64,000 nucleotides of DNA from Eledone cirrhosa (GCA_964016885.1 OZ024743.1:226238001-226302000); one strand, 5' to 3'. Positions 5,246 through 58,472 are shown, counted from the first letter of the stretch. Notes: generated by a model from the sequence alone, not told the origin. Made by a program: numbers and translations.

Positions 5246-6096
5246 ACTGTTCGTTTAATTTGTCCAGGTGTACTTTTTCTCAACCTGATTAGTGCTATCG
5301 TTGCTCTGGTATACATTGTGTGTTAGTTTAGCCTACCACAATGTTCGATTTATCAAGCTATTTAAACGTATGTTATTACTCCAAGGTCCTATCTTATCGA
5401 GTGATTTACTAACTCACCATTTCATATAAGTAGGCCGAATTCACTTGCAAACCGCCAGAGATTCGATTTTACTGATTTCCAATTATATTATTCTCCTAGG
5501 TTTAATAATTAACTAATTAATTTAATTAGACAATCCTGTTGATTGGTTAATTATTAGTGTTTGTTTTATAACATCTAGTCGAGAGCTTATCATGATTATT
5601 AGCGGGAATTTAAAATATTTCCTTTTTTGCTAACTTTTTGAATAACCGCCTGGGACCGGGGGTTATTTCCCTTAGCACGTGATAATTATAGATGCGATTA
5701 GCAGCTTATAGCAGCAACATATAATTTATAACAGGAAGAGCGATAAACCTGTTGATAAACTGAATCCAACGTTCGGTCACCAATACCAGGAGCTTGCCTT
5801 TCAAGTAAGTCTGATATTTGATTTCGGATTCAAAGAAACACTTTCAAAGAAACACTGTTCGTTTAATTTGTCCAGGTGTACTTTTTCTCAACCTGATTAG
5901 TTCTATCATTGCTCTGGTATACATTGTGTGTTAGTTTAGCCTGCCACAATGTTCGATTTGTCAAGCTATTTAAACGTATGTTATTACTCTAAGGTCCTAT
6001 CTTATCGAGTGCTTTGCTAACTCATCATTTCATATAAGTAGGCCGAATTCACTTGCAAACCGCCAGAGATTCGATAGTACTGATTTCCAATTATAT
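5246..6096 (+). mobile_element. Non-coding element with about 240-bp direct terminal repeats (5246-5488, 5854-6096), pLTR/retrozyme-like, inserted in (TA)n
   Basis: Near-identical direct repeats, period 608; each carries the ATTACTC..TCGAGT hairpin; diverged relative at 58030-58470. Confidence 0.75.
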
Positions 6097-6099
6097 ATA

Positions 6100-6235
6100 T
6101 AACAAAGAAGGTATGGTAAGATACCAGGTGGACCATAACGCACCAGAGTACTCGATACTTAGGGTAGTAGAGTGGGTAATGTAGATCGGATCTAGCTGTC
6201 GAAACGGCCGGCGCTTAGCTGTCGAAGTCTTGACT
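6100..6235. mobile_element. Short (TA)n-inserted repeat family F, copy 1 of 5
   Basis: GGTAAG.ACCAG.TGGACCATAACGCACCAGAGTACTC.ATACTTAGGGTAGTAGAGTGGGTAAT recurs at 23861, 28377, 42806 and 50984. Confidence 0.85.
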
Positions 6236-6379
6236 CTATCTATCTATCTATCTATCTATCTATCTATCTATCTATCTATAATTCTATCTATCTATCTATC
6301 TATCTATCTATCTATCTATCTATCTATCTATCTATCTATCTATCTATCTATCTATCTATCTATCTATCTATCTATCTAT
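6235..6379. repeat. (TATC)n microsatellite, 5' flank of Tx1 copy A
   Basis: Direct reading. Confidence 0.97.
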
Positions 6380-6615
6380 AAATAATCTAGCTGTCGTCTG
6401 TTCTACAGCGTAGATGTAATTCACTTCGCGCAGAAGTTTTGTTCAAATTTATTGCGGAAATTTTGTAAGTTCAATTTTAATTTTGATACTATTGTGTAGC
6501 TTGACCCCCGTCTGAACTGTCAGGCGGTGGGTCAGCTCATCTTTACCCCTCCTAGGGGTGAACAACCTGTTTTTAAAAATTTTGTGGCATAAAAAATTTC
6601 AATCGTCTGACAGAA

Positions 6616-8527
6616 ATGTTAAACGAAGCTAACGAAAATGGTGGTGGGGGGACAGCGGTAAGAGTTGTAAGCTCGCACGCTTTAGTCTCCCCTTCCTTCC
6701 CAACTAACGTCATAGAGAAGGAAAGGAAAAATAAAATAAAAACAGACGAATCTGCGGAGAAAAATGACGAAAACGCAAATCTGGACATTGATTCCAACAA
6801 CGAAAAAAAAAAAAATTTGAAAAATTGAATGACAATATTAATACCACAAACAAAGACACGACAAACACAAAAATAACATTTGAAAACAACATCATAACAG
6901 AAAGCAAAGCAGACGACAAAGTCAACACCAATAATATTTCATTTGCACAAACAACAAAGAAATCTTTGACATATATACCTGCAAATATTTCAGATGTGGC
7001 ACAAAGAATTACAGACGCCAAACAATACATAACTGAAGGAGAAAATGGTATTTTATCGGTAAAAATGCCTCAAGAACTCACCAAAGACATTGAAAGTCGA
7101 ACGGTCATTTTCCGCACCATCAACAACATTTCTAAAAAACCTGAACAGCCAACTCAAACAGAAATCAAAACAGTTATTACAGAAGTACTTAATGAAACCA
7201 CTTTCATAAGAAAAGACAGACTGTATGGAAGCCTAGCGATTATTATGAAGAACGAATCGGCAGCAAAAAAATGTGTTTTGTCACCGATTCGTTCGAAAAG
7301 TTTTACCTTTTATCCATCTTATATGGGTAAAAGAACTCAACGCATATGGCTGGATGCAATGATGCCAGATGTGGATTACTGCTGGCTCATAGCTGGCTTC
7401 ATCGATCCAGCGAATGACAACGTGATTTCCATTGGGAAAACCACAGGCAATGCGTTCAGTGGAACAGGTATAGAACTTGTAGTGCAAATGAAGCCTAAAC
7501 GCATCGCTCAAATACCCGACAGAATCCTATTAGAGGGCCACGGGTATATAAACATTACCGTGGAGGGGAGAAGGCCGTCCTGTCATATCTGTGCAGGCAG
7601 AGGGCACCTGAAGGCGGCTTGTCCCCAACTCAACAAAAATAAAACCCTGCTACCAACACCAGCTCCACCACCACCACCACAACAGATAAACAAACAACAA
7701 AACTCAGTCCCACCCAACCCGTCCCTCAGTAAAACTACACCACCACCACAACACAAACAGTCAAACACATTACCCCAAAACAAAATACAGGCCCACCCAA
7801 CCCCTCACTCAATAAAACAACACAACCACCGCAGCCACAACACACAACACAGTCTAACATAGTGACATCCATCTCCCCCACAAAGAAAACCAACACGGAA
7901 ACATTAACAGCAAACATACCTCTTCCCTCCAACACTGAAGATAACCCAACAAATTCGGAGGAAAAAACGGAGTCCTTCAGACAGATTAAAAGGAAAAAAA
8001 GAAAACATGTGCAAAACACACAAGGCCAAACAACCCCCACCCACATGTCATCACAATCCAACAAAACACAAAACACCCCTCCAGCAACAAATAAAACCAA
8101 ACCTGCCCCTCCCCTCTTCGAAACACTCACACCATCCGAAAAAAAGACATTACACTATACTTACATCAACAGAAACAAAAATAAATTAAATGAACTCATA
8201 AACAATAATCCTTCGGTACAAACCGAAGGTGTAAACTTTGTTTCTTCAGAAAACTACCCACATTTAAAATTAATAAAGATCCCAATGAACCTCTTCCAAA
8301 AACTAAAAAAGGATTTTAAGGAGGACGTAGGACTACCCTCTGTCAAACCCATAAACTGCGTCCTACTAAAAAGCTTTCCCCCTCCTCTTCCCCTCCCCAA
8401 CACAACTCCAAACACCCCAACCCAACCACACACTGACGACCCCACACCACCTCAAGACACCCCTTCACCCAACACCCCCGACCCCATGGAAGTCGTGCGA
8501 CCCGAACCCCGGGAAGCAGAAAGGTAG
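6616..8527 (+). pseudogene. ORF1 (gag-like, CCHC zinc knuckle CHICAGRGHLKAAC, Pro/Thr-rich tail), frameshifted
   Basis: ORFs 6616-6828, 6825-7862 and 7862-8527; shifts at the A-run near 6803-6815 and near 7765. Confidence 0.85.
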
Positions 8528-56298: not shown

Positions 56299-56985
56299 GT
56301 TAACAAGTGATGCAACAACACACAACACACGCACACACACACACGCAAACGAGACAACTACACACACACACGCACACACACACAGTAGCATTCCACCATA
56401 CGAACATACTACACTGCGAATACAGATGTACAAGGCAACAACACACACACACACTCAAGCGGGACAACAACACACGCACACACACACACAATAACATTTA
56501 ACAAACAGGCAGAGAATGGACTGACAGCTAGCGCCATCCCACTCCCACATTCGGCCGCTGACCTCTGTACGACCGACCCCATTTCACGCGCACGCGCGCT
56601 CGGCCGAATACCTCAGATATTCAAATCAACAAACAGCGAAAGACGTGTTCCGAGTTGTCCGACAGACAACCTTTTCTCCCACCCCGGAAAAAAAAACCCA
56701 TATGATGGATGTGAATCCGAAATATATAGGGACTATTAAATCTCTCCCAAGGTAACTCTTTCTTGTGTTGTTATTTTTATTTTTATCCTTTATACTCTTC
56801 CCTTCATTCTACACATCTCACACATGTTATACACACCACGCATCTCAACGTACACCCACTTACATCTCTCTCTCCACCACCGGACCTTGTTACCCGGAGA
56901 TTTACCCATTTGCATTGTCGAGGCTTCCAAACGACTTAAAGATATTTACTTAAAGCAAAACTTAAAGCAAACTTCAATACTCTCT
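53786..56985 (+). mobile_element. Penelope-like element family P2 copy 2, 5'-truncated, with 3' pLTR and short tail
   Basis: High similarity to 31541-34643; (TA)n on both sides; tail resembles the ORF start (AAGCAAACTTCAATACTCT). Confidence 0.93.
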
Positions 56986-57278
56986 TATATATATATATAT
57001 ATATATATATATATATATATATATATATATATATATATATATATATATATATATATATATATATATAGAGAGAGAGAGAGAGAGAGAGAGAGAGAGAGAG
57101 AGAGAGAAAGAGAGAGAAACGTTAAGACCCTCTTCCTGCTATATCAAGCGTTAACCTAATATATCCCTTGCATATACTGTACCGATTGTGTTGTTATTTC
57201 TGTTTACCTTTTATATATATATATATATATATATATATATATATATATATATATATATATATATATATATATATATAT

Positions 57279-57916
57279 AATATGTTTAGAAACACACAGA
57301 TACATGCGGACACACACATATACATGAATGCATCCGCACCCAACCGTGAGTTAAGGGTGCCAACTTCACCGATGTTGCTCAATGAATGACTGGGACAGAC
57401 CAATCCGGTTGAACTAGACTGAACCAGTATCAGAGTTAAAAATACATTATGAAGAGAGAAGAAACCTTTAGATATAATTAGTAATAAAATGTATCATACC
57501 TAAACTGCTCCTAGATTCCTCGACTACGTAGTTTCGTGGCATAAACAAAAACAATACATCATAAAGATATAGAGTCCCTGCGAGGTCTGCCGACTTATCA
57601 AGAGGATACCTGATTTTACTAGTCCCAAGAACGCGTCTACACGACGTGAGAAAGAATCCCAAAAGGCGGAGGGGGAGATAGTCACGCGATATAACGGTCG
57701 AGAAACAGAGCTAAGCCTCTTATAACCACGAAGAAAATACCACGGAGGCGGAGGGGGTATTTATATCGAAGCCGTAGAAGAGGTGGTGAAGGAGGCGAGA
57801 AGTATGAGTAATGGAAGCTTTCCAGCAATCCCCACACTTCAAAGATTGCTCGACCAGAGGGAGTTATTAACAATATGTTTAGAAACACACAGATACATGC
57901 GGACACACACATATAC
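57279..57916 (-). mobile_element. Non-coding element with about 46-bp direct repeats, period 593
   Basis: AATATGTTTAGAAACACACAGATACATGCGGACACACACATATACA at 57279 and 57872; shared hairpin on the minus strand. Confidence 0.65.
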
Positions 57917-58020
57917 AAACACACACACACACACACACACGCACGCACACACACACACACACACACACACACACACACACACACACATATATATATATAT
58001 ATATATATATATATATATAT

Positions 58021-58472
58021 TTCACACCGTGTTTTGGGTTAGAACGAAAGCCTGTTGAGAAAGTAAATTCCTCTGTTCGATCTACCAGAAACCTAACTTG
58101 TATACACCACAAACGGATTTTGTTGATTTCGGATTTTACAGAAACCTCACTTGGATATTCAGTAATTTGCAAGTGACGGTCCAGGTATGTTATATATACA
58201 GATATGTGCATATATGTATGTATGTATGTATATTTTTATATGTATATATATATATGTGTGTGTATGTGTGTGTATATCCTTTTCTCACTAGTCTGTTCTT
58301 TCGTTGCTACAGATCACGCGGCTGAATTAGCGGTTGCTATTTTCAATTTGCAAAGCCCTTTAAACTGTACGTTATTACTCTGAGGTCTATTCCTCGTCGA
58401 GTACTTGGCTGCACTGCTGAAGGCATTCGTTGGCTTAGCTGCTGATCGAACTTCGAATATGCTGTACTATTG
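58021..58472 (+). mobile_element. Diverged relative of the 5246-6096 element, interrupted by a microsatellite
   Basis: Shared blocks CCTGTTGA.AAA, TTGATTTCGGATT..AGAAAC, TCGTTGCT and GTTATTACTC..TCGAGT in the same order. Confidence 0.65.

What the first reader, a model, noticed from the sequence alone, without database searches (positions are those of the whole stretch)
5375..58404. One bulged hairpin (TTACYC-stem/loop-YC-GAGT) is shared by about a dozen otherwise unrelated (TA)n-inserted elements and by the autonomous Penelope P2 pLTR
Seen: 5375/5983(+) ATTACTC-TAAG..CTTA-TC-GAGTG; 13501(+) TTATACTC-CAGA..TTTG-TC-GAGTGC; 15651(+) TAACTC-GTCC..GGAC-T-GGGTGC; 23975(+, family F) ATTACCC-ACT..AGT-ATT-GAGTAC; 24273-24317(-) and 46147(+) ATTACYC-CG.AGT..ACT.CG-TC-GAGTGC; 35731(+) TTACTC-CGT..ACG-CT-GAGTGC; 57848-57867(-) TAACTC-CC..GG-TC-GAGCA; 58374(+) ATTACTC-TGAGG..CCTCG-TC-GAGTAC; 12758-12795(-); family G (TAATTC..CCGAGCA, e.g. 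26766); P2 pLTR 31352/34581/56889 GTTACCC-GG..TG-TC-GAGGC. The outer stem and 3' bulge are conserved, while the inner stem changes sequence and mostly keeps pairing (weak in P2). Where a hammerhead is present the motif lies downstream in the same sense, usually 25-90 nt before the 3' junction with (TA)n. Inference: a cis element bound by PLE RT/GIY-YIG proteins that sets the start of reverse transcription and lets non-coding ribozyme RNAs be mobilised in trans. I do not know of a description of this motif, but I could not search for one.
Basis: partly seen in the sequence, partly recalled or inferred. Interest (0 to 1): 0.88.

Follow-up and report, generated by a model that had tools for sequence, protein, structure and literature searches.

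The report
Twin hairpins mark retrotransposon copy ends
Many jumping-gene remnants in this animal genome share a small bulged hairpin that comes in pairs in Hydra-type Penelope retrotransposons and sits 6-8 bases past each of the two fixed points where inserted copies end, so it likely tells the element's enzyme where to start copying and would explain these elements' puzzling one-sided 'tail'.

Summary
In 990 kb of held-out genome, ACTC...GAGT anchors enclose a paired inner stem with a 2-nt 3' bulge in 34 of 83 cases (4.0 in shuffles; other registers at background). It belongs to Hydra-clade Penelope-like elements, whose pLTR reads hammerhead, hairpin 1, tail, hairpin 2, ATG. Copies end about 5-11 nt before hairpin 1 or about 6-8 nt before hairpin 2. 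Tail length tracks hairpin spacing (7 families, r=0.99), and 58 of 59 head-to-head insertions use one end of each kind. A second hairpin predicted beyond the (TA)n junction was found for families F, M, C2 and C, not for E. F, M and C2 are stumps of coding Hydra families; A and R are ORF-less units with both hairpins. P2 and family G fail: no copy ends before their claimed hairpin. 12758 was read on the wrong strand and F in the wrong register. The motif is visible by eye in 4 of 6 published Hydra consensi. I found no description of it in 8 paper searches. Protein binding is untested. Two earlier AI notes of this scan reported twin hairpins on other DNA of this genome.

The parts
5246..6096 (+). 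Family A: ORF-less 608-nt unit in partial tandem, carrying both hairpins; ends at (TA)n
   Evidence: longest open frame 62 aa, no Hydra protein match
5378..5402 (+). A hairpin 1, first copy (first inner pair mutated to C-A)
5492..5584 (+).
   Evidence: (pair probabilities 0.98/0.97)
5986..6010 (+). A hairpin 1, second copy
6150..6173 (-). Family F hairpin 1
12750..12779 (+). Family B hairpin (true strand is +; GAGC mutated to TAGC here); short inverted arm ends 8 nt upstream
13505..13525 (+). Family C hairpin 1; hairpin 2 seen in one genomic copy (L266, ORF-less mini unit)
13746..13767 (-).
15653..15672 (+). Family E hairpin, 1-nt bulge variant; ends 6-8 nt upstream; no hairpin 2 found
23982..24005 (+). 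Family F hairpin 1 in corrected register; inverted arm ends 8 nt upstream, long arm at +72
24275..24314 (-). Family M hairpin 1 in the long arm of a head-to-head insertion (24209-24749)
24383..24420 (-). Hammerhead core of family M, upstream of hairpin 1 (mirror copy at 24650-24687 +)
28427..28450 (-). Family F hairpin 1
35733..35768 (+). Family J hairpin (CT bulge); inverted arm ends 7 nt upstream (one locus only)
44953..44973 (-).
46036..46073 (+). Hammerhead core of family M
46150..46189 (+). Family M hairpin 1; family M is the pLTR of a coding Hydra family
57280..57917 (-). Family R: ORF-less 593-nt unit in partial tandem, carrying both hairpins
57377..57436 (-).
57848..57864 (-). R hairpin 2 (minimal, 2-bp inner stem)
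58377..58402 (+). Family Q hairpin 1 (relative of A)
26768..26799 (+). Family G string: rejected as a member
31335..31389 (+). P2 pLTR string (also at 34581, 56889): rejected as a member; P2 ends lie at 31410-16 and 31450-56

Best explanation
The motif is a bulged hairpin that occurs twice in the pLTR of Hydra-clade Penelope-like retrotransposons, and each copy likely binds the element's RT-endonuclease on the sense RNA and would set the start of reverse transcription at a UA about 6-8 nt 5' of it. Shown: the layout (hammerhead, hairpin 1, tail, hairpin 2, ATG), the two end classes, the TA at each end, and one end of each class per head-to-head insertion. Inferred: the protein nicks (TA)n, the nicked 3' end pairs with that UA, and copying runs away from the hairpin, so the directing hairpin is not copied. 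A start at hairpin 2 copies hairpin 1 and the spacer (the tail); a start at hairpin 1 gives the tail-less arm. Most copies are 5'-truncated, which leaves the stumps seen in the window. Deletion of the ORF gives small units (A, R, and single-locus minis of F, M, C) that keep both hairpins and would be copied in trans.
For: Register-specific enrichment in held-out DNA. Bimodal ends in 13 families. Modal distal end 6-8 nt before hairpin 2 in P4, F, C2, Hy162 and A; r=0.99 between hairpin spacing (78-172 nt) and distal end over 7 families. 58 of 59 classed head-to-head pairs are mixed against 50% expected; 20 of 21 in held-out DNA alone. A pattern that asked only for CTC..T-GAG beyond the distal junction, without pairing, returned a conserved second hairpin for F (3 of 4 matches), M (12 of 36), C2 (42 of 43 places) and C (1 of 1). 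A Hydra ORF follows in M (6 of 7 loci shown) and C2 (10 of 10) and adjoins F in L201. Hydra families picked by protein similarity carry it too (L162 and L073 twin; L089, L034, L177). Pairs covary across 26 hairpins (first inner pair 25 of 26 paired, T-A 8, C-G 15; second 25 of 26, six pair types, hand-picked). By eye in published consensi: Hydra-2_Amil, Hydra-1_Ajap (twin), Hydra-2_Ajap, Hydra-1_Obim (PMC8557442 File S7). In the one PLE tested in vitro, RT starts internally at +111-118 and needs RNA to +172 (PMC11167929).
Against: No binding, probing or expression data. P4's two hairpins have a T-C mismatch in the outer stem, fail my strict descriptor (0 hits) and fold weakly (probabilities 0.28-0.55), yet P4 has sharp ends. 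Hairpin 2 of C2 and C has only one inner pair. E has a 1-nt bulge and no second hairpin in two searches (0 of 23, 0 of 2). A has only 1 of 18 ends near hairpin 1, and M's distal ends scatter over 89-106. P2 also shows one-sided tails (10 of 10 pairs) without this motif, so the hairpin is not the general PLE solution. Strand evidence is weak (G-U 18 vs A-C 7 over the variable pairs, and G-U was allowed when picking). Hydra-1_Crog shows only a purine-bulge variant and Hydra-1_Amil is unclear (2 of 6). One pair with two distal ends (L170, identical flanks) was dropped by de-duplication, and 5 pairs with an off-site end were not classed.
Confidence: 0.62

Rival explanations
1. The hairpins act in single-stranded cDNA or a DNA-RNA intermediate. 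The GIY-YIG endonuclease recognises them and cuts 6-8 nt upstream while resolving a tandem or circular intermediate, giving the two staggered ends.
For: Craig et al. suggest the tail comes from endonuclease-mediated resolution (PMC8557442 passage). The D. virilis endonuclease needed the tail on plasmid DNA (as cited in PMC11167929). Strict one-of-each arms fit a staggered cut as well as a dimer. Each end falls at a TA, the endonuclease's likely target.
Against: In vitro RT starts of the Anolis element coincide with the two genomic ends without such a step. Covariation with free loop length argues against recognition of duplex DNA, though not of single-stranded DNA.
Confidence: 0.2
2. The hairpins direct RNA 3'-end formation (termination or cleavage at the upstream UA), and ordinary TPRT then starts from the resulting RNA 3' ends.
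For: A fixed offset 5' of a structure is what a processing signal would give.
Against: It does not explain why the two arms of one insertion nearly always differ. The Anolis protein starts internally on uncut RNA.
Confidence: 0.08
3. The template is the antisense RNA and the hairpin is a stop signal like the telomerase template boundary element: RT halts 6-8 nt before it.
For: An antisense template was proposed for PLEs (PMC3846280 passage). The geometry matches a boundary element (recalled, not from a call). Some families have A-C mismatches that would be G-U on the other strand (R).
Against: G-U outnumber A-C pairs on the sense strand (18 vs 7). Fixed 3' ends with variable 5' ends are typical of priming at the 3' side. 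Sense RNA works in vitro for the Anolis element.
Confidence: 0.06
4. One reading: the P2 protein recognises the motif in its own pLTR and mobilises the short families.
Against: 29 of 30 unbiased P2 ends lie 25 or 65 nt downstream of it and none just upstream. The centroid fold puts that strand in another helix. The sister family P1 lacks the string. The short families traced so far lead to Hydra ORFs.
Confidence: 0.03

Closest known systems
Hydra clade of C-terminal EN+ Penelope-like elements (Craig et al. 2021, PMC8557442; section 11, search passages and supplement parts 2, 52, 53 read)
   Same: RWK, DKT and CxCX5C motifs, single ORF under 3 kb, hammerhead in the pLTR, (TA)n targets, head-to-head arms with a tail at one end.
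   Different: The parts of the paper I read describe no RNA structure besides the hammerhead (0 hits for 'hairpin' in the listing). The tail is given as 30-40 bp, here 78-172 nt.
Anolis Poseidon element PAc (Frangieh et al. 2024, PMC11167929; parts 1-2 of 4 and both PDF supplements as text)
   Same: Two internal RT start sites bounding the tail, AT-rich nicks on both strands, RNA 3' of the first start required, hammerhead dispensable.
   Different: Other clade; the start is placed in an AC-rich stem-loop inside the ORF; the RNA letters recoverable from Fig. S1 hold no RCUC..GAGY stem (by eye); no repeated binding element is identified. The GenBank supplement and figure images could not be read.
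3'-tail stem-loops shared by stringent LINEs and their SINEs (eel UnaL2, PMC1636434; PMC4176376; start of abstracts only) and the R2 3' UTR (PMC12503042, passages)
   Same: A structured RNA tag read by the retrotransposon protein and kept by non-autonomous partners.
   Different: Those lie 5' of the start, are copied into DNA and occur once. Here the tag lies 3' of an internal start, would not be copied by the enzyme it directs, and occurs twice.
Animal non-LTR retrozymes (PMC7229834, passages; bioRxiv 10.64898/2026.07.22.740005, parts 1-3 of 5)
   Same: ORF-less hammerhead-bearing tandem units related to PLE pLTRs, like A, R and the F and C minis.
   Different: The parts read name no cis element for mobilisation. 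Most window elements are head-to-head stumps, not tandem arrays. The preprint's supplements are closed.

Membership tests
Hydra-clade PLE (carrier P4 and relatives) | RWK motif near the N terminus | tested here: met
   P4 RIRWKT; RMRWK in M, IRWR in C2, LRWR in F (read)
Hydra-clade PLE (carrier P4 and relatives) | DKG changed to DKT | tested here: met
   P4 ADKTS
Hydra-clade PLE (carrier P4 and relatives) | CxCX5C linker; no CCHH in a C-terminal GIY-YIG domain | tested here: met
   CNCVQPGMC; one Cys only inside the GIY-YIG core
Hydra-clade PLE (carrier P4 and relatives) | Single ORF, hammerhead in pLTR, (TA)n insertion | tested here: met
   774-aa open frame in L173; CTGAAGA core before hairpin 1 and (TA)n ends
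Hydra-clade PLE (carrier P4 and relatives) | Placement in the RT phylogeny with reference Hydra proteins | not tested
   Reference proteins were only readable in the paper's supplement; N-terminal likeness to Hydra-1_Obim seen by eye
Hydra-clade PLE (P2) | RWK, DKT, CxCX5C, no CCHH | tested here: not met
   No RWK and no CxCX5C; CxxC inside GIY-YIG; SDKGK in the P2 frame at 32258
Twin-hairpin motif (window families A, C, F, M, R) | Paired inner stem, 2-nt 3' bulge, second hairpin just past the distal end | tested here: met
   hairpin 2 of C has one inner pair only
Twin-hairpin motif (window families B, E, J, Q) | Second hairpin past the distal end | tested here: inconclusive
   E not found; B, J, Q not searched; B, E, J do have ends 6-8 nt before hairpin 1
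Twin-hairpin motif (family G, P2) | Copy ends just 5' of the hairpin | tested here: not met
   G 0 of 32; P2 0 of 30
Non-LTR retrozyme | Tandem units, each with an active type I hammerhead, expressed as circular RNA | not testable with these tools
   A, R and the L200 and L266 minis are tandem and ORF-less; their hammerhead cores look degenerate by eye; cleavage and circles not testable
Known Rfam family | Match at gathering score | tested here: not met
   0 matches in 4 twin-hairpin loci; none among the 150 of 184 window matches listed reaches its gathering score

The most novel reading that the evidence does not exclude
A Hydra RT-endonuclease dimer docks on both hairpins of one RNA and primes both nicked strands of a (TA)n target together, so the PLE tail is simply the distance between two protein-binding hairpins. 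The 20-25-nt tag is portable and would set an internal reverse-transcription start on any RNA placed 5' of it.
Probability: 0.35. Interest if true: 0.82.

Novelty: new variant of a known kind. Interest (0 to 1): 0.62.

Why it matters
How Penelope-like RTs, the closest relatives of telomerase, pick their RNA and why insertions carry a tail at one end only are open questions. The one in vitro study located start sites but no defined binding element. A short, covarying, duplicated hairpin with a fixed offset to both ends, visible in coral, sea cucumber and octopus consensi, gives exact mutations to test. It also gives a way to assign anonymous (TA)n-embedded repeats to their parent clade, and possibly a compact tag for RNA-templated insertion tools.

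Tried and rejected
Crude sequence-only pattern: not enriched over shuffles (59 vs 76.75). Single-linkage clustering of 2,538 (TA)n junctions chained most families into one cluster and was dropped. MAFFT misaligned the 5' arms of 22 hairpins, so no covariance model was built; R-scape is not available, and pair counts come from my own structural table. The search for related loci with the P4 protein in metagenome contigs found nothing. Sequencing runs: no RNA holder listed. Contigs of a second organism did not cover the hairpins; contig depth from the same call is not used as a copy number. A homologue search with the P2 endonuclease region gave 9 unnamed proteins, not used. A search of earlier findings by sequence gave nothing. 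P1, P3 and a P3 relative have no descriptor hit in their pLTRs and were rejected as carriers. Eight paper searches showed no description of the motif; the library lacks most subscription papers (for example the D. virilis endonuclease work) and Repbase notes, and bioRxiv supplements are closed.
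Full report
Setting. The window is G000:C4:226238001-226302000 of an unnamed 3.0-Gb genome. It holds dozens of (TA)n runs, LINE fragments and three Penelope-like coding families, P1 (29177-30877 -), P2 (two copies) and P3 (37140-40244 -), but no Hydra-type ORF. For held-out tests I fetched 99 evenly spaced 10-kb stretches (L031-L129, 990 kb; one requested stretch did not exist).

Is the motif real? With only the anchors ACTC and GAGTRC fixed there are 83 pairs (76 shuffled). Of these, 34 have an inner stem of 3 or more pairs with exactly a 2-nt 3' bulge (4.0 shuffled). Bulges of 0, 1, 3 and 4 nt give 2, 0, 2 and 7, and 5' bulges give 8, 1 and 3, all near background. A looser descriptor gives 80 hits against 24-37, in 37 sequence clusters; 50 of 80 hits and 17 clusters have (TA)4 within 120 nt downstream, against 17.6% of random positions. 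Copies within a family are not independent, so clusters are the fairer count. Over 26 hand-picked hairpins the core CTC/GAG is invariant. The fourth outer pair is A-T 14, G-C 8, T-A 1, unpaired 3. The first and second inner pairs are paired in 25 of 26 with several pair types. The bulge is TT 11, TC 9, TA 3, CT 2, TG 1. This table is partly circular because pairing guided the choice.

Corrections to the list. F pairs from 23982. B is on the + strand. E has a 1-nt bulge. Q is a relative of A. G forms a contiguous stem and has no ends before it. P2 has a string that fits the descriptor, but 29 of 30 ends in loci chosen by upstream sequence lie at 31410-16 or 31450-56 and none just before the string. 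Its centroid fold uses that strand in another helix, and sister family P1 lacks it.

Position. The inverted short arm of many window elements stops just before the hairpin. Across 13 families the ends are bimodal: about 5-11 nt before the hairpin, or 60-164 nt after its start; in held-out DNA alone 51 proximal, 58 distal, 6 other.

The carrier. A Penelope-like fragment in L064 led to family P4, which has the Hydra features of Craig et al. (section 11): RWK, DKT, CxCX5C, no CCHH. Its pLTR has a hammerhead core and then an end 7 nt before a hairpin. At that point I read two earlier AI notes reporting twin hairpins in Hydra elements elsewhere in this genome, and tested the idea. Full-length P4 copies do carry a second hairpin 6 nt past the distal end, then the ATG. 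Hydra families found by protein similarity also carry it: L162 and L073 twin; L089, L034 and L177 hairpin 1; L058 a degraded hairpin 2; L102 had no readable pLTR.

Prospective tests. If the distal end is set by a second hairpin, rare copies that run past the junction should show it. Patterns asking only for CTC and T-GAG found a conserved continuation for F (3 of 4 matches), M (12 of 36, the rest microsatellite matches), C2 (42 of 43 places) and C (1 match). They found none for E (0 of 23 and 0 of 2). A Hydra ORF follows in M (6 of 7 loci shown) and C2 (10 of 10) and adjoins F in L201. Hairpin 2 of C2 and C has one inner pair only. A and R are ORF-less units of 608 and 593 nt with both hairpins; all 40 scored matches to the A junction are 93-100% alike and spread over many contigs. 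Single-locus ORF-less minis of F (257 nt), C and M keep both hairpins; the M mini lacks the hammerhead.

Tail. The modal distal end lies 6-8 nt before hairpin 2 in P4, F, C2, Hy162 and A, 11 nt in M (scattered), and is undefined in Hy073 (2 ends). Spacing and distal end correlate with r=0.99 over 7 families. Of 59 classed head-to-head insertions 58 have one end of each kind, against 50% expected. One pair with two distal ends and identical flanks (L170) was removed by de-duplication, and 5 pairs had an off-site end. Held-out DNA alone gives 20 of 21. One-sided tails are known for PLEs, and P2 shows them too (10 of 10) without this motif.

Other species. Read by eye in File S7 of PMC8557442: clear in Hydra-2_Amil (coral), Hydra-1_Ajap (twin, before the ATG), Hydra-2_Ajap (sea cucumber) and Hydra-1_Obim (long inner arm); a purine-bulge variant in Hydra-1_Crog; unclear in Hydra-1_Amil.

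Mechanism. Shown: layout, covariation, end offsets, arm pairing. Inferred: the Hydra protein binds each hairpin on sense RNA, nicks (TA)n, pairs the nicked end with a UA 6-8 nt 5' of the hairpin and copies away from it; two such starts on one RNA give a tailed and a tail-less arm. This agrees with the Anolis Poseidon protein, which starts internally at two sites bounding the tail, cuts both strands, and needs RNA 3' of the first start (PMC11167929). Endonuclease action on a single-stranded DNA form explains the same genomic pattern and cannot be excluded here. RNA processing and an antisense stop signal are less likely.

Novelty and verdict. The clade, the hammerhead, the tail and pLTR-driven mobilisation in trans are known. 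I found no description of this hairpin or of its doubling in eight searches and no Rfam match; subscription papers, Repbase notes and closed supplements were out of reach.

Noticed in passing
window 31373-31432 (+); P1 copies L093, L102: P2 and its sister P1 both keep GCATTGT and ACAATGC, a helix that encloses the proximal end and overlaps the ATG; a candidate for their own end-setting structure.
   Followed up: partly
window 14815-15460, 26486-26977, 47654-48428: Family G: very abundant hammerhead-bearing element with two ends about 50 nt apart and an internal (TA)n-like stretch; no bulged hairpin; parent clade not identified.
   Followed up: partly
window 36841-36854 (-); also L032, L116: A perfect ACTCG-AAAA-CGAGT hairpin without a bulge, 11 nt before (TA)n, at the 3' end of a different repeat; shares the outer stem letters.
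   Followed up: no
window 14100-14787: Head-to-head hammerhead element whose short arm ends about 5 nt before a CCTC..TT-GAGC string with a larger bulge; possibly a degraded member.
   Followed up: no
window 37140-40244 (-): Penelope-like ORF P3 with a long asparagine-rich insert in its N-terminal part, like those described in rotifer PLEs (PMC3846280 passages).
   Followed up: no
window 6379-12211 and 17840-23658: Two 96% identical 5.8-kb LINE copies with endonuclease- and RT-like frames, plus an older copy at 34-2550.
   Followed up: no
window 40642-40826, 49397-49589, 50406-50603, 51836-52033, 59318-59983: About seven copies of a 185-nt SINE-like repeat not bounded by (TA)n.
   Followed up: no
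L223 (G000:C3:353378793-353381842): 215-nt tandem of family M that keeps both hairpins but has lost the hammerhead and the ORF; one locus only.
   Followed up: partly
window 61404 (-) and 60519 (-): Two descriptor hits with no (TA)n downstream; not examined.
   Followed up: no
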